IMG/VR virus record: IMGVR_UViG_2703718869_000013
Coordinates: 32,001-96,000 of that record
Direction: 5' to 3' (one strand)
DNA length: 64,000 nt
DNA from: a virus
Taxonomy: Duplodnaviria > Heunggongvirae > Uroviricota > Caudoviricetes
Position numbers and translations under genes: made by a program. Below the pieces are notes generated by a model. That model had not been told where the DNA came from and made no database searches. It saw nothing but the letters and a program-made list of their open reading frames with translations. Shown in pieces: positions 972 to 56,527 of the stretch. Each line of letters begins with the position of its first letter. The stretch's first letter is position 1.

Positions 972-2678
972 TTGAGTAACTTACGCGAATACCAGAATCG
1001 TATTGCAGATATCGCAAAACGCTCTAAAGCTGTGCTTGGCTGGGCAAGCACTGCGCAGTTCGGTACTGATAACCAATTCATTAAAGATGATGCCGCGCGT
1101 GCCGCATCTATCCTTGAAGCTGCACGTAAAGACCCGGTTTTTGCGGGTATCTCTGATAATGCCACCGCTCAAATCGCTACAGCGTGGGCAAGTGCACTGG
1201 CTGACTACGCCGCAGCACATAAATCTATGCCGCGTCCGGAAATTCTGGCCTCCTGCCACCAGACGCTGGAAAACTGCCTGATTGAGTCCACCCGCAATAG
1301 CATGGATGCCACTAATAAAGCGATGCTGGAATCCGTCGCAGCAGAGATGATGAGCGTTTCTGACGGTGTTATGCGTCTGCCTTTATTCCTCGCGATGATC
1401 CTGCCTGTTCAGTTGGGGGCAGCTACCGCTGATGCGTGTACCTTCATTCCGGTTACGCGTGACCAGTCCGACATCTATGAAGTCTTTAACGTGGCAGGTT
1501 CCTCTTTTGGTTCTTATGCTGCTGGTGATGTTCTGGACATGCAATCCGTTGGTGTGTACAGCCAGTTACGTCGCCGCTATGTGCTGGTGGCAAGCTCCGA
1601 TGGCACCAGCAAAACCGCAACCTTCAAGATGGAAGACTTCGAAGGCCAGAATGTACCAATCCGAAAAGGTCGCACTAACATCTACGTTAACCGTATTAAG
1701 TCTGTTGTTGATAACGGTTCCGGCAGCCTACTTCACTCGTTTACTAATGCTGCTGGTGAGCAAATCACTGTTACCTGCTCTCTGAACTACAACATTGGTC
1801 AGATTGCCCTGTCGTTCTCCAAAGCGCCGGATAAAGGCACTGAGATCGCAATTGAGACGGAAATCAATATTGAAGCCGCACCTGAGCTGATCCCGCTGAT
1901 CAACCACGAAATGAAGAAATACACCCTGTTCCCAAGTCAGTTCGTTATCGCGGCTGAGCACACGGTACAGGCGGCGTATGAAGCACAGCGTGAATTTGGT
2001 CTGGACCTGGGTTCCCTACAGTTCCGCACCCTGAAGGAATACCTGTCTCATGAACAGGATATGCTGCGTCTTCGCATCATGATCTGGCGTACTCTTGCGA
2101 CCGACACCTTTGACATCGCTCTGCCGGTTAACCAGTCCTTTAATGTATGGGCAACCATCATTCGTGGCAAATTCCAGACTGTATATCGCGACATTATTGA
2201 GCGCGTTAAATCTTCTGGTGCGATGGGGATGTTTGCTGGTGCTGATGCAGCATCTTTCTTCAAACAGTTGCCGAAGGATTTCTTCCAGCCAGCCGAAGAC
2301 TATATCCAGACTCCGTATGTTCACTACATCGGTACCCTGTTCGGTAACGTGAAAGTGTACGAAGTACCTGCTGGTATTTGTAAGAACTTAACGACAGAGA
2401 ACATTCAGTTCAGCTCGATGGATGTGCTGTGCTACGTCCGTGATGAAAATCCGGGTAAAGCAGGCTTCGTGACTGGTGATGCTGTCCCGGCTATCCCGTT
2501 CCAGCATCCGACCACTCCGGCGCTGGTCAACCGTACCACACTGTGGGGTTCGGCTATCAACGATATGCACCCACGCAACGGCGCTGATTACTTCACTCGT
2601 GTAACGCTGACAATGGCCAAAAAAGGCGGGCTTAACTTCATAAGCGGCGACACGATTGATGCCGGTGACTCTGAGTAA
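972..2678 (+). CDS. Virion structural protein, probably major head protein (P1 gene 23 position)
   Basis: Long ORF right after parS as in P1; TTG at 972 has an AGGAAG Shine-Dalgarno (the track's upstream TTG at 951 does not); function assigned by position and size only. Confidence 0.5.
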   Translation: MSNLREYQNRIADIAKRSKAVLGWASTAQFGTDNQFIKDDAARAASILEAARKDPVFAGISDNATAQIATAWASALADYAAAHKSMPRPEILASCHQTLENCLIESTRNSMDATNKAMLESVAAEMMSVSDGVMRLPLFLAMILPVQLGAATADACTFIPVTRDQSDIYEVFNVAGSSFGSYAAGDVLDMQSVGVYSQLRRRYVLVASSDGTSKTATFKMEDFEGQNVPIRKGRTNIYVNRIKSVVDNGSGSLLHSFTNAAGEQITVTCSLNYNIGQIALSFSKAPDKGTEIAIETEINIEAAPELIPLINHEMKKYTLFPSQFVIAAEHTVQAAYEAQREFGLDLGSLQFRTLKEYLSHEQDMLRLRIMIWRTLATDTFDIALPVNQSFNVWATIIRGKFQTVYRDIIERVKSSGAMGMFAGADAASFFKQLPKDFFQPAEDYIQTPYVHYIGTLFGNVKVYEVPAGICKNLTTENIQFSSMDVLCYVRDENPGKAGFVTGDAVPAIPFQHPTTPALVNRTTLWGSAINDMHPRNGADYFTRVTLTMAKKGGLNFISGDTIDAGDSE

Positions 2679-2738
2679 TCAGGGGAAGTTCTCCGTTTAA
2701 CATAGCGCCCCCGTGCGGGGCGCATAACAGGGAAAGTT

Positions 2739-4328
2739 ATGTCTCAATATTCAATTCAACAGTCATTAGGTAATGCATCCGGCGTCGCGGTTAGCCCGAT
2801 CAATGCCGATGCGACGTTATCTACCGGTGTTGCATTAAATAGCAGCTTGTGGGCTGGTATTGGCGTATTTGCGCGTGGCAAGCCGTTTACTGTTCTTGCG
2901 GTTACTGAGTCCAATTACAAAGATGTTCTCGGCGAACCGCTGAAGCCGTCTTCCGGCTCACAGTTCGAACCAATTCGCCATGTATACGAAGCTATTCAGC
3001 AAACGTCAGGTTATGTTGTTCGTGCTGTTCCGGATGATGCGAAGTTCCCGATTATTATGTTCGATGAATCAGGCGAACCGGCTTACAGTGCGTTGCCATA
3101 CGGTTCTGAAATTGAACTTGATAGTGGCGAAGCCTTTGCTATCTACGTTGATGATGGTGATCCGTGTATTTCACCTACCCGTGAGTTAACCATCGAAACG
3201 GCAACAGCGGACAGCGCGGGTAATGAACGCTTCCTCTTAAAACTGACCCAGACGACTTCGCTCGGCGTGGTAACGACCCTGGAGACACACACTGTGTCTT
3301 TGGCGGAAGAAGCGAAAGATGACATGGGCCGCTTGTGTTATCTGCCTACGGCTCTGGAAGCCCGTTCTAAATATCTGCGCGCGGTTGTTAATGAAGAGCT
3401 GATTTCGACGGCGAAAGTAACAAATAAAAAATCGCTGGCGTTCACTGGTGGTACCAACGGTGATCAGTCGAAAATCTCAACCGCTGCGTACCTGCGTGCG
3501 GTTAAGGTGCTGAACAATGCGCCGTACATGTACACCGCTGTTCTCGGCCTGGGTTGCTATGACAATGCGGCGATCACCGCGTTAGGTAATATCTGTTCTG
3601 ATCGCCTGATTGATGGCTTCTTTGATGTCAAACCGACATTGACGTATACGGAAGCGCTCTCTGCTGTTGAAGATACCGGTTTACTTGGTACCGATTATGT
3701 AAGCTGTGCTGTCTATCACTACCCGTTCTCCTGCAAAGACAAATGGACCCAATCCCGTGTGGTCTTTGGTCTGTCTGGCGTGGCGTATGCGGCGAAAGCT
3801 CGTGGCGTCAAGAAAAACTCTGATGTCGGCGGTTGGCATTACTCACCGGCTGGTGAAGAACGTGCCGTCATTGCTCGTGCGTCAATTCAACCGCTGTATC
3901 CGGAAGATACCCCGGACGAAGAAGCAATGGTCAAGGGCCGTCTCAATAAAGTATCTGTTGGCACCTCTGGCCAGATGATCATCGACGATGCTTTAACTTG
4001 CTGCACGCAGGATAACTATCTGCACTTCCAGCACGTCCCATCCCTGATGAATGCAATCAGCCGTTTCTTTGTCCAGTTAGCCCGACAGATGAAGCATAGC
4101 CCGGACGGTATTACTGCGGCTGGCCTGACTAAAGGGATGACCAAACTTTTAGATCGCTTTGTCGCCTCCGGCGCTCTGGTGGCTCCTCGTGATCCTGATG
4201 CTGACGGTACAGAACCGTATGTGCTGAAAGTTACGCAGGCGGAATTCGATAAATGGGAAGTAGTCTGGGCCTGCTGCCCGACTGGCGTAGCCCGTCGTAT
4301 CCAGGGCGTACCGCTGCTTATTAAGTAA
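2739..4328 (+). CDS. Putative tail sheath protein (P1 gene 22 position)
   Basis: 529-aa ORF following the head gene; assigned by synteny and size. Confidence 0.45.
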   Translation: MSQYSIQQSLGNASGVAVSPINADATLSTGVALNSSLWAGIGVFARGKPFTVLAVTESNYKDVLGEPLKPSSGSQFEPIRHVYEAIQQTSGYVVRAVPDDAKFPIIMFDESGEPAYSALPYGSEIELDSGEAFAIYVDDGDPCISPTRELTIETATADSAGNERFLLKLTQTTSLGVVTTLETHTVSLAEEAKDDMGRLCYLPTALEARSKYLRAVVNEELISTAKVTNKKSLAFTGGTNGDQSKISTAAYLRAVKVLNNAPYMYTAVLGLGCYDNAAITALGNICSDRLIDGFFDVKPTLTYTEALSAVEDTGLLGTDYVSCAVYHYPFSCKDKWTQSRVVFGLSGVAYAAKARGVKKNSDVGGWHYSPAGEERAVIARASIQPLYPEDTPDEEAMVKGRLNKVSVGTSGQMIIDDALTCCTQDNYLHFQHVPSLMNAISRFFVQLARQMKHSPDGITAAGLTKGMTKLLDRFVASGALVAPRDPDADGTEPYVLKVTQAEFDKWEVVWACCPTGVARRIQGVPLLIK

Positions 4329-46769: not shown

Positions 46770-46991
46770 ATGGTTAATGCCAATCCTTGCGCACGCCCTG
46801 AATTTATCTGGCGCTTTTACTCCTGCCAGAAACGCCACTATCACTTCGTTATTGCACCGACAGAAGATGAGGCACGTTCTCAGCTTCCGGATGCTCCCTG
46901 CATTTTCTCCGCACGCTTTTCTACTGACTCGCGCAATTCTCTCAGTTACTGGTGCCTCCCTGTTAACGCTTCTGTTCAGGAGGGGCTATGA
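46770..46991 (+). CDS. icd: Icd-like small protein (module C)
   Basis: 73 codons; stop overlaps ant ATG. Confidence 0.75.
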   Translation: MVNANPCARPEFIWRFYSCQKRHYHFVIAPTEDEARSQLPDAPCIFSARFSTDSRNSLSYWCLPVNASVQEGL

Positions 46992-48100
46992 GAACGTCAT
47001 TAGTCACCCGTGAAGAGATGATCGAGGCAATTGAACAGCACACAATCTGTATCAGCACCAGGGATATACCAGGCGTTATTGCCAACTACTTCATGATCAC
47101 CAAACAACTTTACCGGAGAAAGGACAAGAACGCGGTTCACCGTATCCTGTTGTCTGATATCCGCGAATACCTGCTCGAACAGGGTCATCTGAATTACGCA
47201 ACCGTCGCAGCCGAAGCACGCAAGGAGGCACACAGAATGAAAGCAACTAACGTTAAATCAGAAAAAATTTATGCACCTTCAGTTCAGGAATCGGAACTGG
47301 TGGTTGTTCAGAATCAGCCGGATGAAATTCCCGTTCTGGAATGGCAGGGAGTACGTGTCGTAACAACCGAAACTCTTGCTAGAGGGTATGGGGTCGATGA
47401 AGCCAATATTCGCAACAATTTGTCTCGCAACCTTGACCGCTTTGAAGAAGGTAAGCATTACTTTCTTCTAACTGGTTTAAAATTAAGAGAATTTAAGAAC
47501 AGAGTAACCGGAAGTTACTCTGTTGGTAAGAACGCCAGAAGCCTTACACTCTGGACAGAGCGCGGCGCTGCACGCATGTCTAAGATCGTGGACACAAATG
47601 AAGCATGGGCATTCTTTGAAAAACTGGAAGACAGCTACTTCCGGCAAAAAGAACAGCAACCGGTCGCAATCCCTCAGACGCTTCCCGAAGCTCTGCGCCT
47701 GGCTGCCGAGCTGGCTGAACAAAAGCAACTTCTGGAACAGAAAGCCCACCAGCTAAATCAGCAGCTGGTGGCCGCCGCCCCTAAAGTCGATTTTGCCGAC
47801 CGGGTATCAGGGGCCAAGGGGATCCTGATTGGAAATTTTGCAAAGGTTGTTGGGCTTAAGCAAAACGCGTTGTTTGCCTGGTTACGGGGGAACGGCATCC
47901 TGATAGCGTCCGGTGGACGTAAAAATGTGCCGTTCCAGCAATACATCAACGCCGGGTATTTCACGGTGAAAGAAGTGGTGCTGGATGATGAAGATGGTTA
48001 CCAGATACGGCTGACGCCCCAATTAACGGGTAAAGGCCAGCAGTGGTTGACGCGTAAACTGCTCGAAGCTGGCTTGTTAAAACCGGTGGCGGCTGAATGA
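46988..48100 (+). CDS. ant: Antirepressor Ant (module C), with extra Bro-N/AntA-like central domain
   Basis: 370 aa; C-terminal ANT/KilAC domain; central WQGVRVVTTETLARGYG..LTLWTERGAARM block. Confidence 0.8.
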   Translation: MRTSLVTREEMIEAIEQHTICISTRDIPGVIANYFMITKQLYRRKDKNAVHRILLSDIREYLLEQGHLNYATVAAEARKEAHRMKATNVKSEKIYAPSVQESELVVVQNQPDEIPVLEWQGVRVVTTETLARGYGVDEANIRNNLSRNLDRFEEGKHYFLLTGLKLREFKNRVTGSYSVGKNARSLTLWTERGAARMSKIVDTNEAWAFFEKLEDSYFRQKEQQPVAIPQTLPEALRLAAELAEQKQLLEQKAHQLNQQLVAAAPKVDFADRVSGAKGILIGNFAKVVGLKQNALFAWLRGNGILIASGGRKNVPFQQYINAGYFTVKEVVLDDEDGYQIRLTPQLTGKGQQWLTRKLLEAGLLKPVAAE

Positions 48101-48339
48101 TTAAAAAAGGCGGCCTTTCGGCCGCCAATGATGTCACGGAGTCTATAATGGCAATGTCTTCGTAGTTGACTAAAGCCACAACTCAATTATAACAATTAAT
48201 TATAGCAATAGTGGCTATTTTATTTATCGCGAATCACATTTTTTCTCTTCAGTACATGTGTGCTATACTCCTTCTTGATTGATTGGATGCGGAATACAAA
48301 CCCGCTCTTTTGTGCAGCCTGGCTCCTTGCCAGGCTTTT

Positions 48340-48651
48340 TTATTTCATCATGGAAGCTGTTAACGCTTTGGACCTTGCTGAACTGATTGAGAGGGCTTTG
48401 TCAACGTGCCCCAAAAATTCGCCAAACTCAGACATCACTTTAGCAAAACCGCGCCGTGCTTCTTCCTCGGTGGCGTTCATCACGAAATGTTCAGCACCAC
48501 GCATACTTTTGACAGGGAACGCAACGGATATTGAGTCAATATCAGGCATTCTATCGCTCAGCTTTACAGTGACAATGACGGCTGGCGACTGAATATTAGT
48601 GCTTACAGACAGCACTACATATTTTCCGTCGATGTTGAAATCCTTTCTCAT
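48340..48651 (-). CDS. Hypothetical protein (cre-adjacent)
   Basis: 103-aa ORF downstream of cre, same strand; weak C1-operator-like site upstream. Confidence 0.5.
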   Translation of the reverse strand: MRKDFNIDGKYVVLSVSTNIQSPAVIVTVKLSDRMPDIDSISVAFPVKSMRGAEHFVMNATEEEARRGFAKVMSEFGEFLGHVDKALSISSARSKALTASMMK

Positions 48652-48667
48652 ATGTCACCATAAATAT

Positions 48668-48684
48668 CAAAGAATTAGAGCAAT
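48668..48684. promoter_or_regulatory. Weak C1-operator-like site
   Basis: 13/17 match including the TTAGAGCAAT core. Confidence 0.35.
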
Positions 48685-48701
48685 CATTTACGCGTTGATG
48701 G

Positions 48702-49733
48702 CTAATCGCCATCTTCCAGCAGGCGCACCATTGCCCCTGTTTCACTATCCAGGTTACGAATGTAGTTCATGACAATATTTACGTTGGTCCAGCCACCAGC
48801 TTGCATGATCTCCGGTATTGAAACTCCGGCGCGGGCCATATCTCGCGCGGCACCGACACGGGCACTATGTCCAGACCAGGCCAGGTATCGCTGACCAGAG
48901 TCATCTTTTGCCCCGTAAATCAATCGGTGAGTTGCTTCAAAAATCCCTTCCAGGGCGCGAGTTGATAGCTGGCTGGTGGATGATGGCGCGGCAACACCAT
49001 TTTTTCTGACGCGGCAAAACAGGTAGTTATTCGGATCATCAGCTACACCAGAGACAGAAATCCATCGCTCAACCAGTTTAGTTACCCCCAGGCTAAGTGC
49101 CTTCTCTACACCAGCGGTGCTAACCAGCGTTTTCGTTCTGCCAATATGGATTAACATTCTCCCACCGTCAGTACGTGAGATATCTTTAACCCTGATCCTA
49201 GAAATTTCGGCTATACGTAACAGGGTGTTATAAGCAATCCCCAGAAATGCCAGATTACGTATATCCTGGCAGCGATCGCTATTTTCCATGAGTGAACGAA
49301 CCTGGTCGAAATCAGTGCGTTCGAACGCCAGCGCCTGTTTTGCACGCTCACCGGCATCAACGTTTTCTTTTCGGATCCGTCGCATGACCAGTGAAACAGC
49401 ATTGCTGTCACTTGGTCGTGGCAGCCCGGACCGACGATGAAGCATGTTTAGCTGGCCCAAATGTTGCTGGATAGTTTTTACTGCCAGACCACGCGCCTGA
49501 AGATATAGAAGGTAATCGCGAACATCTTCAGGTTCTGCGGGAAACCATTTCCGGTTATTCAACATGCACCATGCCGCCCACGACCGGCAAACGGACAGAA
49601 GCATTTTCCAGGTATGATCAGAAAACGCCTGGCGATCCCTGAACATGTCCATCAGGTTCTTGCGAACCTCATCACTCGTTGCATCGACCGGCAATGCAGG
49701 CAAATTTTGGTGAACGGTTAACGAATTAGTCAT
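48702..49733 (-). CDS. cre: Cre site-specific tyrosine recombinase
   Basis: 343 aa, near-identical to P1 Cre as recalled (differences at residues 2-5 and a few internal positions); loxP about 820 bp upstream. Confidence 0.97.
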   Translation of the reverse strand: MTNSLTVHQNLPALPVDATSDEVRKNLMDMFRDRQAFSDHTWKMLLSVCRSWAAWCMLNNRKWFPAEPEDVRDYLLYLQARGLAVKTIQQHLGQLNMLHRRSGLPRPSDSNAVSLVMRRIRKENVDAGERAKQALAFERTDFDQVRSLMENSDRCQDIRNLAFLGIAYNTLLRIAEISRIRVKDISRTDGGRMLIHIGRTKTLVSTAGVEKALSLGVTKLVERWISVSGVADDPNNYLFCRVRKNGVAAPSSTSQLSTRALEGIFEATHRLIYGAKDDSGQRYLAWSGHSARVGAARDMARAGVSIPEIMQAGGWTNVNIVMNYIRNLDSETGAMVRLLEDGD

Positions 49734-50125
49734 TTATTATGCGTGATTTTAACAGTTAAGCCTTGTTCATGAAGTATCTCATCAATAATTCGAATCACAT
49801 CCCCTGGTAGATCATCGTTCTCGAAATATCTGTGATCGGGGATTTCTACAGTGATTGGGGTTGCTGCTTTATGCAAAATCCGAACAATCTTTTTTTCTTT
49901 TTTGCATGTTGCATATTCAGCCTCTTCGATATCTATCCAGCTCGCACCATCAAATTGCTGGTAAACCCGAGTGTATAGTAAGCGGTTTCGCTTTACTTCT
50001 TCTGCTAACTCCCAAATTGCAACAGCCATAGCACGTTCATTTTCATTCGTTCCAGGGTTAGCAGCTTTTTGTTTTGCGTCGTTCAGTAAGGCGTTTACCT
50101 TGGCATCTGTCAGGCCATTAAACAT
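49730..50125 (-). CDS. Hypothetical protein, stop overlaps cre start (ATGA)
   Basis: 131-aa ORF with ATG start; TGA overlaps the cre ATG. Confidence 0.55.
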   Translation of the reverse strand: MFNGLTDAKVNALLNDAKQKAANPGTNENERAMAVAIWELAEEVKRNRLLYTRVYQQFDGASWIDIEEAEYATCKKEKKIVRILHKAATPITVEIPDHRYFENDDLPGDVIRIIDEILHEQGLTVKITHNK

Positions 50126-50144
50126 TCATCACCTCATGATCAAG

Positions 50145-50366
50145 TTAAATTATTGTTTTCAGCAGAGTGTACAGGATTGGCTCTGCCTTTACCTGGTTAT
50201 GGTTCTCGTCATAGAAACGCCAGCGACCGCGCGTGCGTTCTATTTTCTCTTCACCGCGAGATAATGACTGTTGGTAACTATCACGCTCAAACCATTTTGC
50301 CCGCCAGTAACCACGGTTTTTCTCAAGCTCAAGATGAGTGGACACTTTAGCAGCTGAATATCCCAT
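50145..50366 (-). CDS. Hypothetical small basic protein
   Basis: 73-aa ORF upstream of the 131-aa ORF, same strand. Confidence 0.4.
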   Translation of the reverse strand: MGYSAAKVSTHLELEKNRGYWRAKWFERDSYQQSLSRGEEKIERTRGRWRFYDENHNQVKAEPILYTLLKTII

Positions 50367-50398
50367 TTTTCACCTCTGATTGATTGGTGGTGCTAAGT

Positions 50399-50484
50399 GC
50401 GCTACGCGAAATCTGGAGCACTAACACTGCCAACATTTCGCAGATTTTACGTAGCGCAACCTTGATCAAATGATCAAGTGATCA
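50399..50484. promoter_or_regulatory. 17-bp inverted repeat pair plus three TGATCA hexamers (GATC cluster) between loxP and the small ORFs
   Basis: GCGCTACGCGAAATCTG ... CAGATTTTACGTAGCGC; TGATCAAATGATCAAGTGATCA. Confidence 0.4.
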
Positions 50485-50555
50485 CTATTTGACCTGATAA
50501 GGTATTGAACTGTATGGATTTACAGGTAAATTAATCATGTTCAATAACCCTTAAG

Positions 50556-50589
50556 ATAACTTCGTATAATGTATGCTATACGAAGTTAT
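50556..50589. other. loxP: loxP site (13-bp inverted repeats around 8-bp spacer)
   Basis: ATAACTTCGTATA-ATGTATGC-TATACGAAGTTAT read directly. Confidence 0.97.
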
Positions 50590-50632
50590 TAGGTCCGAAG
50601 AGGAGTTTACGTCCAGCTACGCATAAAAATCA

Positions 50633-50649
50633 AGAATTATTAGAGCAAT
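50633..50649. promoter_or_regulatory. C1-operator-like site in the coi-c1 control region
   Basis: 15/17 match to the operator 17-mer. Confidence 0.55.
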
Positions 50650-50709
50650 AAATTTTGAGAGAAAAATCCCACTCCACCAGCCAAAAACTGGATTGTTTTT
50701 CATAGTTGT

Positions 50710-50732
50710 TTGACAATTGCTCTAATAAATTA
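50710..50732 (+). promoter_or_regulatory. TTGACA -35 hexamer abutting a C1 operator (ATTGCTCTAATAAATTA)
   Basis: 16/17 operator match overlapping the promoter spacer; upstream of coi and c1. Confidence 0.65.
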
Positions 50733-50970
50733 TAGTTTTGCCGCCGTTACGTAATACGACTTTGGATTCACTATTTAATGTGTCTTCAGCGTTGTAGAGC
50801 GGCTCAGAAGGAAATGAGCAAACAGGGAAACCTTATACAACGGCATTACAGCTATGCATTGCTCATCTTACACACAGCGCAATGTTGTTAGATTACCCCA
50901 GCATGGATCATGGGTGAAACAGTAGGTCAGAGCTTCAGGCTCTGTGTTGTCAATACAGTGAGGCATAATT

Positions 50971-51180
50971 ATGGCTTTCATTCAACCAACCATCGACGAC
51001 GTTAGACATTGCTCTAACGCTTTATCTGTAGACCCTGCCGAAACCGACGCTGCCCGCGCCATTGCTGAACACTACTCAAAGATATCCAATCAGGAGTACC
51101 GCATCACCCAAGACGACCTGGATGATCTCACTGACACAATCGAATATCTCATGGCCACTAACCAGCCAGACTCACAATAA
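50971..51180 (+). CDS. coi: Coi-like C1 inactivator
   Basis: 69-aa acidic protein immediately upstream of c1, downstream of operator-controlled promoter. Confidence 0.75.
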   Translation: MAFIQPTIDDVRHCSNALSVDPAETDAARAIAEHYSKISNQEYRITQDDLDDLTDTIEYLMATNQPDSQ

Positions 51181-51290
51181 ATGCACTAATAAATCTATTA
51201 TTTTCGTTGGATCCTTCTATAATGGTGGCCAACAACTCCCAGTGTAATCCGCTGTGAGTTGTTGGCCATGTCAATTCTGGAGGAGGATCA

Positions 51291-52142
51291 ATGATAAATT
51301 ATGTCTACGGCGAACAACTGTACCAGGAGTTCGTCAGCTTCAGGGATCTCTTTCTAAAAAAAGCTGTTGCACGCGCCCAACACGTTGATGCCGCCAGCGA
51401 CGGTCGTCCTGTACGCCCGGTTGTCGTTCTGCCGTTCAAAGAAACGGACAGCATTCAGGCTGAAATTGATAAATGGACTTTAATGGCGCGGGAACTGGAA
51501 CAGTACCCAGACCTCAATATCCCAAAGACTATTTTATATCCAGTGCCTAACATCCTTCGCGGTGTGCGTAAGGTTACAACTTATCAGACAGAAGCTGTGA
51601 ACAGCGTCAACATGACCGCTGGCCGCATTATTCATCTGATTGATAAGGACATTCGCATCCAGAAAAGCGCGGGGATCAATGAGCACAGTGCGAAATACAT
51701 AGAGAACCTGGAAGCAACAAAAGAGCTAATGAAGCAGTACCCGGAGGATGAAAAATTCCGTATGCGTGTACACGGCTTTAGCGAAACAATGCTGCGCGTC
51801 CATTACATTTCCAGTAGCCCTAACTACAATGATGGTAAATCAGTTAGTTACCATGTGCCGCTGTGTGGTGTGTTTATCTGCGATGAAACTCTCCGTGATG
51901 GAATCATCATCAACGGTGAATTCGAGAAAGCAAAATTTAGCCTTTATGACTCTATAGAACCGATCATCTGCGACCGCTGGCCGCAGGCAAAAATATATCG
52001 CCTGGCAGATATTGAAAATGTAAAAAAACAAATTGCCATCACTCGCGAAGAGAAAAAGGTTAAGTCAGCCGCATCAGTTGCGCGCAGCCGTAAAACCAAG
52101 AAGGGGCAGCCAGTAAACGACAACCCCGAAAGCGCGCAATAA
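51291..52142 (+). CDS. c1: C1 master repressor of lysis
   Basis: 283 aa beginning MINYVYGEQLYQEF as recalled for P1 C1; operator sites throughout the window. Confidence 0.9.
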   Translation: MINYVYGEQLYQEFVSFRDLFLKKAVARAQHVDAASDGRPVRPVVVLPFKETDSIQAEIDKWTLMARELEQYPDLNIPKTILYPVPNILRGVRKVTTYQTEAVNSVNMTAGRIIHLIDKDIRIQKSAGINEHSAKYIENLEATKELMKQYPEDEKFRMRVHGFSETMLRVHYISSSPNYNDGKSVSYHVPLCGVFICDETLRDGIIINGEFEKAKFSLYDSIEPIICDRWPQAKIYRLADIENVKKQIAITREEKKVKSAASVARSRKTKKGQPVNDNPESAQ

Positions 52143-52145
52143 ATT

Positions 52146-52168
52146 ATGCCCGGCATCAACCGGGCATT
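52146..52168. terminator. Hairpin ATGCCCGG-catcaa-CCGGGCAT between convergent c1 and ant
   Basis: 8-bp stem directly after c1 stop. Confidence 0.5.
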
Positions 52169-52174
52169 CTTCCA

Positions 52175-53293
52175 TTATTCAGCCGCCACCGGTTTTAACA
52201 AGCCAGCATCGAGCAGTTTACGCGTCAACCACTGCTGGCCTTTACCCGTTAATTGAGGCGTCAACCGTATCTGGTAGCCATCTTCATCATCCAGCACCAC
52301 TTCTTTCACCGTGAAATACCCGGCGTTGATGTACTGCTGGAACGGCACATTTTTACGTCCACCGGACGCTATCAGGATGCCGTTCTCCCGTAACCAGACA
52401 AACAGCGCGTTTTGCTTAAGTCCAACAACCTTTGCAAAATTCCCAATCAGGATCCCTTTAGCTACTGATACCCGGTCGGCAAAATCGACTTTAGGAGCGG
52501 CGGCCACCAGCTGCTGATTTAGCTGGTGGGCTTTCTGTTCCAGAAGTTGCTTTTGTTCAGCCAGTTCGGCAGCCAGGCGTAGGACTTCAGGAAGCGTCTG
52601 GGGGATTGCGATCGGTTGCTGTTCTTTTTGTCGGAAGTAGCTGTCTTCCAGTTTTTCAAAGAATGCCCATGCCTGATCGGTTTCGAGCATTTTAGCGTGG
52701 CGGGCTGCGCCGCGTTCTGTCCAGAGGGTGAGTGAGCGAACATTGCGAGCAATTTTTACAGAGTAGTTTAAAGCTACTCTGTGCTTCAACTCGCGCAATG
52801 ATTCTCCTTCAACTTTGAAAAAGTGCTTCCCTTCAACAAAGCGTACTTTGTTCTCATGATGATTTTGGCGAATACGGATTGTTTCTGTCCCATACCCTCT
52901 CGCAAGAGTCTCGGTTGTCACTACACGCACTCCCTGCCATTCCAGAACGGGAATTTCATCAGACTGATTCTGAACAACCACCAGCTCCGATTCCTGAACT
53001 GAAGGTGCATGAATTTTTTCTAATTTAACGTTATTTGCTTTCATTCTGTGTGCCTCCTTGCGTGCTTCGGCTGCGACGGTTGCGTAATTCAGATGACCCT
53101 GTTCGAGCAGGTATTCGCGGATATCAGACAACAGGATACGGTGAACCGCGTTCTTGTCCTTTCTCCGGTAAAGTTGTTTGGTGATCATGAAGTAGTTGGC
53201 AATAACGCCAGGTATATCCCTGGTGCTGATACAGATTGTGTGCTGTTCAATTGCCTCGATCATCTCTTCACGGGTGACTAATGACGTTCTCAT
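52175..53293 (-). CDS. ant: Antirepressor Ant (module D), with Bro-N/AntA-like central domain
   Basis: 372 aa; paralogous to module C Ant; ANT/KilAC C-terminus. Confidence 0.8.
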   Translation of the reverse strand: MRTSLVTREEMIEAIEQHTICISTRDIPGVIANYFMITKQLYRRKDKNAVHRILLSDIREYLLEQGHLNYATVAAEARKEAHRMKANNVKLEKIHAPSVQESELVVVQNQSDEIPVLEWQGVRVVTTETLARGYGTETIRIRQNHHENKVRFVEGKHFFKVEGESLRELKHRVALNYSVKIARNVRSLTLWTERGAARHAKMLETDQAWAFFEKLEDSYFRQKEQQPIAIPQTLPEVLRLAAELAEQKQLLEQKAHQLNQQLVAAAPKVDFADRVSVAKGILIGNFAKVVGLKQNALFVWLRENGILIASGGRKNVPFQQYINAGYFTVKEVVLDDEDGYQIRLTPQLTGKGQQWLTRKLLDAGLLKPVAAE

Positions 53294-53511
53294 AGTCCCT
53301 CCTGAGCAGAAGCGTTAACAGGGAGGCACCAGTAACTGAGAGAATTGCGTGAATCAGTGGAAAAACGGGCAGAGAAAATACATGGGGCGTCAGGAAGCTG
53401 AGAGCGAGCCTCATCTTCTGTTGGTGCAATAACGAAGTGATAGTGACGTTTTTGGCAGGAGTAAAAGCGCCAGATAAATTCAGGATGAGTTGGGGTAGGG
53501 ATAGTAGCCAT
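53290..53511 (-). CDS. icd: Icd-like small protein (module D)
   Basis: 73 codons from ATG at 53511 with GGAGG Shine-Dalgarno; track ORF continues upstream without a start signal. Confidence 0.7.
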   Translation of the reverse strand: MATIPTPTHPEFIWRFYSCQKRHYHFVIAPTEDEARSQLPDAPCIFSARFSTDSRNSLSYWCLPVNASAQEGL

Positions 53512-55334: not shown

Positions 55335-56527
55335 TAATCATCATCCCCGTATAGCTTGCGGGTAACTTCTTCGTCTTCCTCCTCGTCTTCGTCCAGGTCT
55401 TGTTCCAGCCATGGTTCGTTTGATACACCTTCAGTATCAACATCTCCATAACCGCCTGTATCAACGATATCGGCGATTTCTTCCCTACGTTGCTCAATCC
55501 ACAATGCAGCATCGGCGCGGCGGTTGGCGGCCCGTTCTCGCGCAACTTTGTCCAGATCTTCAAGAGAAGGGCCACCGACGGCAGTTTGCCTTTCCTCATC
55601 ATCGGTATTTGTCTTAGGAGCACGCAGATCGGCTTTGATTTGTTCCAGCATCAGGGGCGGCACTTTCCCTCCATGCGCCTCGATGAATTCAGCCGCTTCC
55701 AGCACTGACCAGTTATTTTCACGCTTTCGTTCGTATGCCAGCTTAACAATGCCAGCTTGCCCCATAGATAAAGCGTGCTTTTCCGCCTCCCGGCTTTCTT
55801 TTCGATAGTTATTCCGGATGCTGTAAATGGTGTTGATCAGGCTGCTTATCTGCGCGGAACAGCTGTTTAGCATGCTCGCGATACGGTATTCAGGCGGAGT
55901 ACCTTCATCATCGGCTTTTTGCTGATCGCGCATTTCCTGCACCAAGCGAATACACGTATCCCTGGCGTTCTCCAGCATAAGGAGATGAGAAAGAGACTTT
56001 TCAAGAAGAGTGGTTTCCAGAACATCGGCCCCGGACCGACGCAACATAGCGCGCGCGGCCTTCCGCGCTTCAACGTTATCTATCAGGTAATCGCCAGCTT
56101 CAAATTCAAAGCGTTCACCATCATCATCCAGGGTGTCGCGTTCCAGGCGATCACGTAAGGTCCGGTGGGCGCGGGTGATCACGTCATGATCATCTGAACG
56201 ATCATTTATGCGCTTATTTTGGCGCTTCGCATTCTCTACTGCGGCACTGACAACGGCATTAACTCTTTGTTTTTCCGCTATTTCCGCCGCAATGTGATCA
56301 CCTGAATGTTGATCATTAGAGTGATCAATGATCATGCTTTTTAGTGGCTTCCTGACTGGCTTATTTGGCTTGCGGCTGTCCGCAGTCCTGGTGTCTTCTT
56401 TGAAGGCACGGAGATAACGACGTGCGGTATTAGGGTTAAGATTAAACTCGGCGGCATACTGTGCGATGGTGTAACCACCATCTCGCGCCAGGCGAGCAAA
56501 ATTCTTTTTGTGATCGTCCCAGGTCAC
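55334..56527 (-). CDS. pacA: Terminase small subunit PacA (contains pac site)
   Basis: 397 aa; pac hexamer clusters inside its 5' part; acidic C-terminus. Confidence 0.8.
56176..56334. other. pac: pac packaging site: two clusters of TGATCA hexamers (3 + 4) with GATC Dam sites
   Basis: TGATCACGTCATGATCATCTGAACGATCA and TGATCACCTGAATGTTGATCATTAGAGTGATCAATGATCA, about 100 bp apart, inside pacA. Confidence 0.85.

What the first reader, a model, noticed from the sequence alone, without database searches (positions are those of the whole stretch)
49730..50484. Two extra ORFs between loxP and cre; the second stop overlaps the cre start codon
loxP-to-cre spacing here is about 820 bp, whereas I recall about 430 bp of promoter-only DNA in P1. 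The extra DNA holds a 73-aa and a 131-aa ORF on the cre strand, the latter ending in TGA overlapping the cre ATG, and the first four Cre residues differ from P1 (MTNSL versus MSNLL as recalled), so the junction sits at the cre start. Upstream is a 17-bp inverted repeat pair and three TGATCA hexamers. Cre may therefore be expressed as the third gene of a small operon.
Basis: partly seen in the sequence, partly recalled or inferred. Interest (0 to 1): 0.6.

Follow-up and report, generated by a model that had tools for sequence, protein, structure and literature searches.

The report
Orphan gene wedged between cra and cre
In this P1-like phage-plasmid, only one of the two reported ORFs is extra: a 131-residue orphan gene swapped in between the known genes cra and cre, which probably makes Cre translation depend on it but is otherwise ordinary accessory cargo.

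Summary
The sequence features are real. loxP is at 50556-50589. A 73-aa ORF (50145-50366) and a 131-aa ORF (49730-50125) lie on the cre strand. The second stop overlaps the cre ATG (ATGA, 49730-49733).

The 73-aa ORF is cra, annotated in P1 since 1986. The inverted repeat, LexA box and GATC hexamers are the known P1/P7 cre regulatory region.

Only orf131 is extra: a net +404 bp replacing P1's 7-nt cra-cre spacer.

- **It is a real gene.** dN/dS is 0.11-0.18 (p<1e-6), and it has a perfect Shine-Dalgarno sequence.
- **It is an orphan.** Only one 50%-identity cluster was found among 1.84 billion representatives. No Pfam, NCBIfam, PADLOC or PDB match was found, and AlphaFold confidence was poor.
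- **It is a mosaic patch.** Window 49715-50180 is 85-97% identical to a Salmonella P1-like lineage whose flanks are only 55-75% identical.
- **It is rare.** It occurs in 32 of 695 cre-positive complete E. coli genomes, mostly O111 STEC, and in 14 of 704 P1-like plasmids.

The lox-to-cre interval is a cargo slot. Other elements carry orf356+cra, orf356+cra+orf131, or higBA there.

Best reading: accessory cargo co-transcribed with cra-cre and translationally coupled to cre. Its function is unknown.

The parts
50556..50589 (-). loxP, the 34-bp Cre recombination site (13-bp inverted arms and 8-bp spacer)
   Evidence: Exact match to the canonical loxP. An identical site is present in the Salmonella lineage L006.
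50510..50525 (.). LexA box core, CTGTAAATCCATACAG. P1 annotates a LexA site at 46-65, overlapping P2coi.
   Evidence: Identical to P1 in alignment A1 and annotated in P1 and P7. It sits at the same distance from loxP (+31) in the divergent Salmonella lineage.
50463..50484 (.). Three TGATCA (Dam GATC) hexamers overlapping the -35 of the pR1/P3cre promoter
   Evidence: Located. P7 annotates the same three as Dam sites 2-4 of the cre regulatory region. P1 has two of them.
50444..50469 (-). Equivalent of promoter pR1 (P3cre), mapped from P1 104-129
   Evidence: Gap-free alignment to P1 with the P1 annotation. The mapping is inferred and no transcript data exist.
50398..50458 (.). Imperfect inverted repeat, 18-nt arms 25 nt apart. 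The loxP-proximal arm (50441-50458, upstream on the cre strand) contains the pR1 -10.
   Evidence: Found. Both arms are conserved in P1 and in the Salmonella lineage despite roughly 40% divergence around them. Its function is unknown. In pLH50-c-C the homology with the window ends exactly at its distal arm.
50145..50366 (-). cra (Cre-associated, 73 aa, pI 9.6), a known P1 gene. It also carries the equivalents of pR2 (about 50261-50290) and pR3 (about 50149-50173).
   Evidence: dN to P1 Cra is 0.036 (six nonsynonymous differences), at the same position. It matches PHROG 804 at E=6e-33. Homologues occur only in P1-like elements.
50128..50135 (-). Shine-Dalgarno GAGGTGAT of orf131, with its GAGG core 6 nt before the ATG. 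A fourth TGATCA lies just upstream at 50137-50142.
   Evidence: Direct reading. This is 8-nt complementarity to the 16S rRNA 3' end, which is established knowledge.
49730..50125 (-). orf131, the only truly extra gene: 131 aa, 15 kDa, pI 5.6, GC 40%, an orphan
   Evidence: Absent from P1. dN/dS is 0.11-0.18 against the Salmonella copies, p<1e-6. It matches PHROG 20152, function unknown. Its only relatives are 89% or more identical across the full length, plus truncated copies.
49730..49733 (-). ATGA overlap of the orf131 stop and the cre start. cre has no SD here.
   Evidence: P1's putative cre RBS (X03453 475-482) is lost.
48702..49733 (-). cre, 343 aa, six substitutions relative to P1 Cre, catalytic residues R173/K201/H289/R292/W315/Y324 intact
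49715..50180 (.). Mosaic patch: the last ~35 nt of cra, orf131, and the first ~20 nt of cre, shared with a divergent Salmonella P1-like lineage
   Evidence: Sliding-window identity: 85-97% to L006/L009 inside the patch and 55-75% outside it. Identity to P1 is 95% or more outside the patch.

Best explanation
The window is a P1-like phage-plasmid. Its lox-cre interval is the known P1/P7 cre regulatory region plus cra, with one extra gene, orf131, in place of P1's 7-nt cra-cre spacer.

orf131 is a genuine but orphan protein-coding cassette. It has been exchanged between divergent P1-like lineages by recombination within the conserved cra 3' end and cre 5' end.

Inferred steps:
- orf131 is transcribed from the existing cre promoters as the middle cistron of cra-orf131-cre. 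These are pR1 upstream of cra, and pR2 and pR3 inside cra, all of which now lie upstream of orf131.
- Because the insertion removed cre's own putative ribosome-binding site and created an ATGA stop/start overlap, Cre synthesis is now coupled to translation of orf131.

Most likely role (inferred, weakest step): passenger cargo using an operon that is on during lysogeny. A lysogen-benefit or phage/host-conflict function is more likely than a part in the Cre-lox reaction. The same slot carries unrelated cargo in other P1-like elements (orf356, or higBA).
For: Shown:
- Only orf131 is extra relative to P1, and cra and the regulatory sites are shared.
- orf131 is under purifying selection: dN/dS 0.11-0.18, p=4.5e-7 to 1e-10. 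It is intact in all five loci compared and matched full-length in all 14 plasmid records.
- It has a strong SD, cre has none, and the stop and start overlap by 4 nt.
- No terminator-like site lies on the cre strand.
- The patch is mosaic. orf131 dS to the Salmonella copies is 0.39-0.49, against 1.4-1.6 for cra and saturation for cre.
- GC is 40% (GC3 34%), against 50% for cre and 47% for the window.
- Distribution is patchy: 14 of 704 plasmids, 32 of 695 cre-positive E. coli genomes, and none in the phage collection.
- Other contents of the same slot: orf356-cra-cre in pCVMN1543, orf356-cra-orf131-cre in Salmonella contigs, and higB-higA-cre in pLH50-c-C, with the junction again at cre codons 1-5.
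- orf131 works beside Cre proteins only 81% identical to each other. This argues against a tightly co-adapted partner.
Against: - There are no transcript or protein data. The promoter scan found nothing in the region, not even the documented pR1-pR3, so it cannot exclude a promoter inside orf131.
- The function of orf131 is entirely unassigned. Pfam, NCBIfam, PADLOC and PDB gave nothing. AlphaFold pLDDT was 53 and Foldseek found nothing.
- orf131 is always found immediately upstream of, and overlapping, cre, which would also fit a Cre-related role. However, exchange through flanking homology would produce the same positional constancy.
- Between close E. coli variants dN/dS is about 0.5 and not significantly below 1.
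Confidence: 0.6

Rival explanations
1. orf131 is a Cre accessory or regulatory protein that binds Cre or lox DNA. It might bias resolution against integration or inversion, limit Cre activity, or block recombination with a superinfecting P1. Under this view its coupling to cre sets their stoichiometry.
For: It is strictly adjacent to cre with an ATGA overlap in every carrier, across two lineages whose Cre proteins are 81% identical. Small genes overlapping a tyrosine-recombinase gene are typical of directionality factors (established knowledge, for example lambda xis-int).
Against: - About 95% of P1-type cre genes lack it. Cre-loxP needs no accessory protein (established knowledge).
- The protein is acidic (pI 5.6), with no HTH, Xis or other DNA-binding domain hit.
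- loxP is identical with and without it.
- No Cre changes accompany the cassette beyond codons 2 and 4, and those also occur without orf131 (L011).
- The slot holds unrelated cargo elsewhere.
- Constant position is explained by exchange through flanking homology.
Confidence: 0.1
2. orf131 acts mainly as a translated leader that sets Cre dosage, and its protein product is irrelevant.
For: cre lost its own putative RBS and overlaps the orf131 stop.
Against: The amino-acid sequence is under clear purifying selection over 131 codons. A leader would not need 131 conserved codons.
Confidence: 0.05
3. cra and orf131 form a two-gene toxin-antitoxin or defence pair, by analogy with the higBA module that occupies the slot in pLH50-c-C.
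For: The pair is a small basic protein (Cra, pI 9.6) followed by a small acidic protein (pI 5.6) in one operon. A TA module sits in the same slot in another element.
Against: cra occurs alone in about 95% of elements. orf131 moved without the body of cra. Neither protein gave a significant PADLOC or Pfam hit.
Confidence: 0.05
4. The 131-codon ORF is a chance open frame in non-coding inserted DNA.
For: It has no homologue of known function and the structure prediction is poor.
Against: dN/dS is 0.11-0.18 with p<1e-6. The frame is intact across copies 11% divergent in protein. It has a perfect SD at optimal spacing and an exact stop/start overlap conserved in all lineages. The frameshifted copies break at an A6-G-A7 run in low-quality assemblies in which cre is also broken.
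Confidence: 0.02

Closest known systems
The P1/P7 cra-cre transcription unit and cre regulatory region (Sternberg et al. 1986, GenBank X03453; P1 genome NC_005856; P7 AF503408)
   Same: It shares loxP, the LexA box, the Dam GATC cluster over pR1, the inverted repeat, the 73-aa cra with its SD, the sequence equivalents of pR2 and pR3 inside cra, and a 343-aa Cre. Identity to P1 is 95% or more outside the patch.
   Different: A 396-bp ORF with a 19-nt spacer replaces the 7-nt cra-cre spacer. cre's putative RBS is lost and replaced by an ATGA overlap. Cre carries S2T and L4S.
Phage morons and accessory cargo genes of phage-plasmids
   Same: The gene is present in a minority of otherwise collinear relatives. 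Its GC is lower than its surroundings. It is an orphan that evolves faster than its neighbours (dN 0.045-0.05 against 0.005 for cre). It lies in a unit expected to be expressed in the lysogen.
   Different: Classical morons bring their own promoter and terminator. This one has neither detectable element and is embedded, with translational coupling, inside an existing operon.
Recombination directionality factors (Xis-like) encoded upstream of and overlapping a tyrosine-recombinase gene
   Same: It is a small gene immediately upstream of, and overlapping, the recombinase gene.
   Different: It is acidic rather than basic, has no Xis or HTH domain, and is absent from most cre loci. Cre needs no such factor.
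pO111_2 of E. coli O111:H- 11128 (NC_013370.1) and related STEC P1-like plasmids
   Same: They carry the same cra-orf131-cre arrangement at 99.6-100% identity. The window is 100% identical to NZ_CP027443.1 across the 1,021-bp lox-cre query.
   Different: Nothing differs. In these records orf131 is annotated only as a hypothetical protein, and I found no paper that discusses it.

Membership tests
P1-type cre regulatory region and cra-cre unit | Canonical 34-bp loxP next to the unit | tested here: met
   Exact loxP at 50556-50589.
P1-type cre regulatory region and cra-cre unit | LexA box and Dam GATC cluster over pR1 at fixed distances from loxP | tested here: met
   The LexA box is at +31 and the GATC sites at +73, +81 and +89 from loxP. 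They are identical to P7 and nearly identical to P1.
P1-type cre regulatory region and cra-cre unit | 73-aa cra with its own SD directly upstream of cre (7-nt spacer) | tested here: not met
   cra and its SD are present, with six nonsynonymous differences from P1 (dN 0.036). It is separated from cre by orf131, so the 7-nt spacer is replaced.
P1-type cre regulatory region and cra-cre unit | Promoters pR1-pR3 active, with pR1 Dam-sensitive | not testable with these tools
   The sequence equivalents are conserved. The consensus scan detects none of them, in line with their known weakness.
Cre recombinase (tyrosine recombinase, PF00589) | Phage_integrase domain and catalytic R173, K201, H289, R292, W315, Y324 | tested here: met
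   PF00589 at E=3e-32. All six residues are intact and there are six substitutions relative to P1 Cre.
Moron (Hendrix-type accessory gene) | Present in some but absent from closely related genomes at a precise junction | tested here: met
   32 of 695 cre-positive E. coli genomes and 14 of 704 plasmids carry it, with precise replacement of the 7-nt spacer.
Moron (Hendrix-type accessory gene) | Base composition different from the surrounding genome | tested here: met
   GC is 40.4% and GC3 34%, against 50% for cre and 46.8% for the window.
Moron (Hendrix-type accessory gene) | Own promoter and terminator forming an autonomous transcription unit | tested here: not met
   No promoter-like or terminator-like site flanks it on the cre strand. 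It overlaps cre by 4 nt. The scan is insensitive to weak promoters.
Recombination directionality factor (Xis-like) | Small basic DNA-binding protein with a winged-helix or HTH fold | tested here: not met
   pI is 5.6 and there is no Pfam or NCBIfam hit. The fold prediction is unreliable.
Recombination directionality factor (Xis-like) | Changes the direction or outcome of recombination by the adjacent recombinase | not testable with these tools
   This needs in vivo or in vitro recombination assays.
Type II toxin-antitoxin or known defence system | Match to a known toxin, antitoxin or defence protein family | tested here: not met
   PADLOC gave only a sub-threshold JetC hit (E=0.01, 11.7 bits). 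Pfam and NCBIfam gave nothing above their cut-offs.

The most novel reading that the evidence does not exclude
orf131 is a previously unrecognised partner of Cre: a small acidic protein made in fixed ratio with Cre through translational coupling, which modulates Cre-lox recombination. It might favour dimer resolution, prevent chromosomal integration, or exclude recombination with incoming P1 genomes. That would give the supposedly accessory-free Cre system a natural regulator.
Probability: 0.07. Interest if true: 0.65.

Novelty: new variant of a known kind. Interest (0 to 1): 0.25.

Why it matters
Cre-loxP is among the most widely used recombination tools, and its native regulation in P1 is only partly understood. 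The function of cra itself is unknown.

This variant shows that the lox-to-cre leader is a recurrent cargo slot in P1-like phage-plasmids. It is found holding cra alone, cra+orf131, orf356+cra, orf356+cra+orf131, or higBA. In one lineage, common in O111 Shiga-toxin E. coli, Cre translation has probably become dependent on an upstream orphan gene.

That offers a simple natural system for two questions: how Cre dosage is set, and what lysogeny-expressed cargo P1-like plasmids carry. As it stands this is a modest comparative-genomics observation. The gene is already annotated as hypothetical in dozens of public records, and no function can be assigned.

Tried and rejected
- **Family searches for orf131.** Pfam, NCBIfam and PADLOC gave only sub-threshold noise: FkbM methyltransferase, AadA and JetC. 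PHROGs matched only its own family of unknown function, phrog_20152.
- **Homologue searches.**
  - The 5.8-billion-protein word search found 6 near-identical clusters.
  - Exhaustive phmmer over 1.84 billion representatives found one full-length cluster.
  - The extra hits P0008-P0010 are a 19-residue YQxxDGxxWxDI motif repeated in cadherin/Ig-repeat giants. I rejected them as chance matches to repeats.
  - tblastn against 50,697 phage records gave nothing.
  - One genome per GTDB species gave nothing.
  - IMG/VR gave only near-identical E. coli copies, one of them frameshifted.
- **Structure.** AlphaFold2 of orf131 gave pLDDT 53 and Foldseek/PDB had no hit with E<1. The PDB profile search returned only a designed coiled coil at E=0.74. 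AlphaFold2 of Cra gave pLDDT 65, all-beta, with no Foldseek hit.
- **Cre-mediated or transposon-like insertion.** There are no lox-like sites (best 14 of 26 positions) and no direct repeats longer than 6 nt at the junctions.
- **Paralogue elsewhere in the element.** None in the window.
- **Known RNA families in 48000-52500.** None relevant.
- **Compensatory changes in the inverted repeat between lineages.** None. The arms are conserved as sequence (by inspection).
- **Literature.** There is no mention of this ORF or of WP_000481733. The P1 genome paper (PMC523184) is not held.
Full report
**1. What is in the sequence**

The window is a P1-like phage-plasmid read in the opposite orientation to the P1 reference. 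The 1,021-bp lox-cre query (49600-50620) is 100% identical to E. coli 2013C-3252 plasmid NZ_CP027443.1.

The features on the minus strand are:
- loxP at 50556-50589
- a 73-aa ORF at 50145-50366
- a 131-aa ORF at 49730-50125
- cre at 48702-49733

The 131-aa ORF ends in a TGA that shares ATGA with the cre start. There are 822 nt between loxP and the cre ATG. The 18-nt inverted repeat (50398-50415 / 50441-50458) and the three TGATCA hexamers (50463-50484) are present as described.

**2. Comparison with P1 corrects the premise**

A megablast search against phages and a direct alignment with NC_005856 show the following:
- The window is collinear with P1 from loxP to the end of the 73-aa ORF.
- It is collinear again from about codon 8 of cre onwards.
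- A single net insertion of 404 bp lies between these.

The 73-aa ORF is cra. P1 carries it at 207-428, with a 7-nt spacer before cre at 436. It was annotated as ORF1 with its own ribosome-binding site in the 1986 cre record X03453, together with promoters pR1, pR2 and pR3 and a putative cre RBS. P7 annotates the same gene as upf0.2, and the same three GATC sites as Dam sites of the cre regulatory region.

The LexA box, the GATC cluster over the pR1 -35, and the inverted repeat (whose loxP-proximal arm carries the pR1 -10) are all shared with P1. P1's lox-cre interval is thus not promoter-only. Only the 131-aa ORF, here called orf131, is extra.

**3. orf131 is a real gene**

Five independent copies were compared: the window, two E. 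coli variants (L008, L010) and two Salmonella contigs (L006, L009). All keep the 131-codon frame.
- Against the Salmonella copies, dS is 0.39-0.49 and dN is 0.055-0.067.
- This gives dN/dS of 0.11-0.18, with far fewer non-synonymous changes than neutrality predicts (p=4.5e-7 and 1e-10).
- Between close E. coli variants dN/dS is about 0.5 and not significant. dN there (0.045-0.05) is about ten times that of cre, so orf131 is the fastest-evolving of the three genes.

orf131 has an 8-nt perfect Shine-Dalgarno sequence (GAGGTGAT, 50128-50135), with its GAGG core 6 nt before the ATG. This is the same style as cra's.

Frameshifted copies break at an A6-G-A7 run. They occur in a low-quality assembly in which cre is also fragmented, so they look like sequencing errors.

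**4. orf131 is an orphan**

- It matches only PHROG 20152, of unknown function.
- Pfam, NCBIfam, PADLOC and PDB sequence searches gave nothing.
- The 5.8-billion-protein search returned six clusters. Five are full-length at 89% identity or more, and one is a truncated copy.
- Exhaustive phmmer over 1.84 billion representatives returned one full-length cluster.
- The remaining weak hits are a short motif repeated in cadherin/Ig-repeat proteins. I regard them as spurious.
- The AlphaFold2 model is unreliable (pLDDT 53), and Foldseek found nothing.

The protein is 15 kDa, acidic (pI 5.6), predicted mostly helical in its N-terminal half, and has no paralogue in the window.

**5. Origin: a laterally exchanged patch**

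Sliding-window identity shows that the window is 95% or more identical to P1 outside about 49715-50180. Inside that patch it is 85-97% identical to a Salmonella P1-like lineage (L006, L009). That lineage's flanking cra and cre are only 55-75% identical to the window.

The substitution rates agree. orf131 dS is 0.39-0.49, against 1.4-1.6 for cra and saturation for cre.

The patch includes the last ~35 nt of cra and the first ~20 nt of cre. This explains the synonymous changes at the cra 3' end and the S2T and L4S changes in Cre.

The MTNSL start is the normal one in the Salmonella lineages, including pCVMN1543, which has no orf131 (L011). It is therefore a marker of the donor lineage, not of the insertion.

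There are no lox-like sites or direct repeats at the junctions. GC is 40%, against 47-50% for the surroundings. The ultimate source of orf131 is unknown.

**6. Distribution**

| Collection | Carriers of orf131 |
|---|---|
| P1-like plasmids in PLSDB | 14 of 704 |
| Complete E. coli genomes | 32 of 5426 (695 of them carry P1-type cre) |
| Phage records | 0 of 50,697 |

Thirty of the 33 E. coli records are 99% or more identical. They are largely O111:H8/H-/H2 STEC plasmids, including pO111_2 (NC_013370.1). The count of cre alleles at least 99% identical to the window's (29 records) is similar, which suggests one mainly clonal plasmid lineage. There is also a small second group at 95% identity.

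**7. The lox-to-cre leader is a cargo slot**

Five architectures were seen.

| Element | Content between the regulatory region and cre |
|---|---|
| P1, P7 and about 95% of relatives | cra |
| This window | cra-orf131 |
| Salmonella Newport pCVMN1543 and relatives | orf356-cra (7-nt spacer) |
| Salmonella contigs L005-L007, L009 | orf356-cra-orf131, with overlapping stops and starts |
| E. coli pLH50-c-C | higB-higA |

In pLH50-c-C, homology with the window ends exactly after the inverted repeat and resumes at the cre start, where the first codons read MSNVL.

Across all of these, loxP, the LexA box and the GATC cluster keep identical spacing. One conserved promoter region therefore drives whatever lies between it and cre. 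orf356 is also of unknown function (PHROG 7674).

**8. Mechanism**

*Shown:*
- cra and orf131 are 19 nt apart, and orf131 overlaps cre by 4 nt.
- orf131 has a strong SD.
- The sequence upstream of the cre ATG (CACGCATAATAAATG) has no SD-like element, whereas P1 has the annotated GAGTG.
- There is no terminator-like hairpin on this strand.
- The sequence equivalents of pR1-pR3 are retained, and all now lie upstream of orf131.

*Inferred:*
- cra-orf131-cre is one transcription unit.
- Cre translation depends on termination-reinitiation after orf131.
- P1 biology (Cre resolves plasmid dimers in the prophage) implies that the unit is weakly on in lysogens. That makes it a suitable host for lysogeny-expressed cargo.

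I therefore favour passenger cargo with a function outside the Cre reaction. The supporting points are the patchy distribution, the foreign composition, the fast evolution, tolerance of Cre partners only 81% identical to each other, and unrelated cargo, including a TA module, in the same slot.

A Cre-modulating role is not excluded, and I rate it at about 0.1.

**9. Novelty and score**

Everything except orf131 is textbook P1/P7. orf131 has sat in public records as a hypothetical protein at least since the pO111_2 record NC_013370.1. I found no paper that discusses it.

The arrangement is a new variant of the known cra-cre unit. A P1 specialist would find it mildly interesting rather than surprising. 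Interest is 0.25.

Noticed in passing
window 46797-48111 and 52164-53484: A ~1.3-kb inverted repeat pair, 92-93% identical. Each copy is an icd-like plus ant/KilAC antirepressor module. Together they bracket the 4-kb block c8-cre-orf131-cra-loxP-coi-c1. In pAVS0578-B, pacB abuts c1 and ref follows c8, so neither module is present there. Recombination between the copies would invert the immC/lox/cre block.
   Followed up: partly
window 56176-56334: A cluster of seven Dam hexamers (four TGATCA/GATC at one end and three at the other, about 100 bp apart) inside the pacA/terminase gene. It matches my recollection of the P1 pac site. TGATCA is also enriched across the window, with 39 found against 21 expected.
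   Followed up: partly
Cra homologues in public records (for example L010 2753-2974; P0013, P0018, P0033): NCBI annotation names the 73-aa Cra protein 'creatininase' in hundreds of records. This is almost certainly a naming artefact for a tiny protein of unknown function.
   Followed up: no
L025 (pLH50-c-C, NZ_CP100503.1) about 1530-3545: This P1-like derivative has higBA in place of cra. Its loxP spacer carries a point change (GCAAACAT instead of GCATACAT). Its Cre C-terminus is altered (350 aa, ending ...LLEVDILPHLRTS) and directly abuts a transposase gene. Its Cre-lox system may therefore be altered or inactive.
   Followed up: partly
L006 1699-2769; L011 1501-2571: Salmonella P1-like lineages carry a 356-aa ORF of unknown function (PHROG 7674; no Pfam or PADLOC hit) as the first gene after the cre promoter region. 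It overlaps the cra start by 4 nt and is 75% identical between the two lineages.
   Followed up: partly
window 49890-49903 (minus strand, orf131 codons for KKEKK): An A6-G-A7 homopolymer run is the point at which truncated or frameshifted orf131 copies break (L021, P0006). These are probably sequencing errors, but the run is a potential slippage site.
   Followed up: no
L006 about 1040-1200 (between coi and loxP): By eye this looks like a tRNA-like stretch on the minus strand of the Salmonella lineage, in a position where the window has none. It was not scanned with ARAGORN.
   Followed up: no
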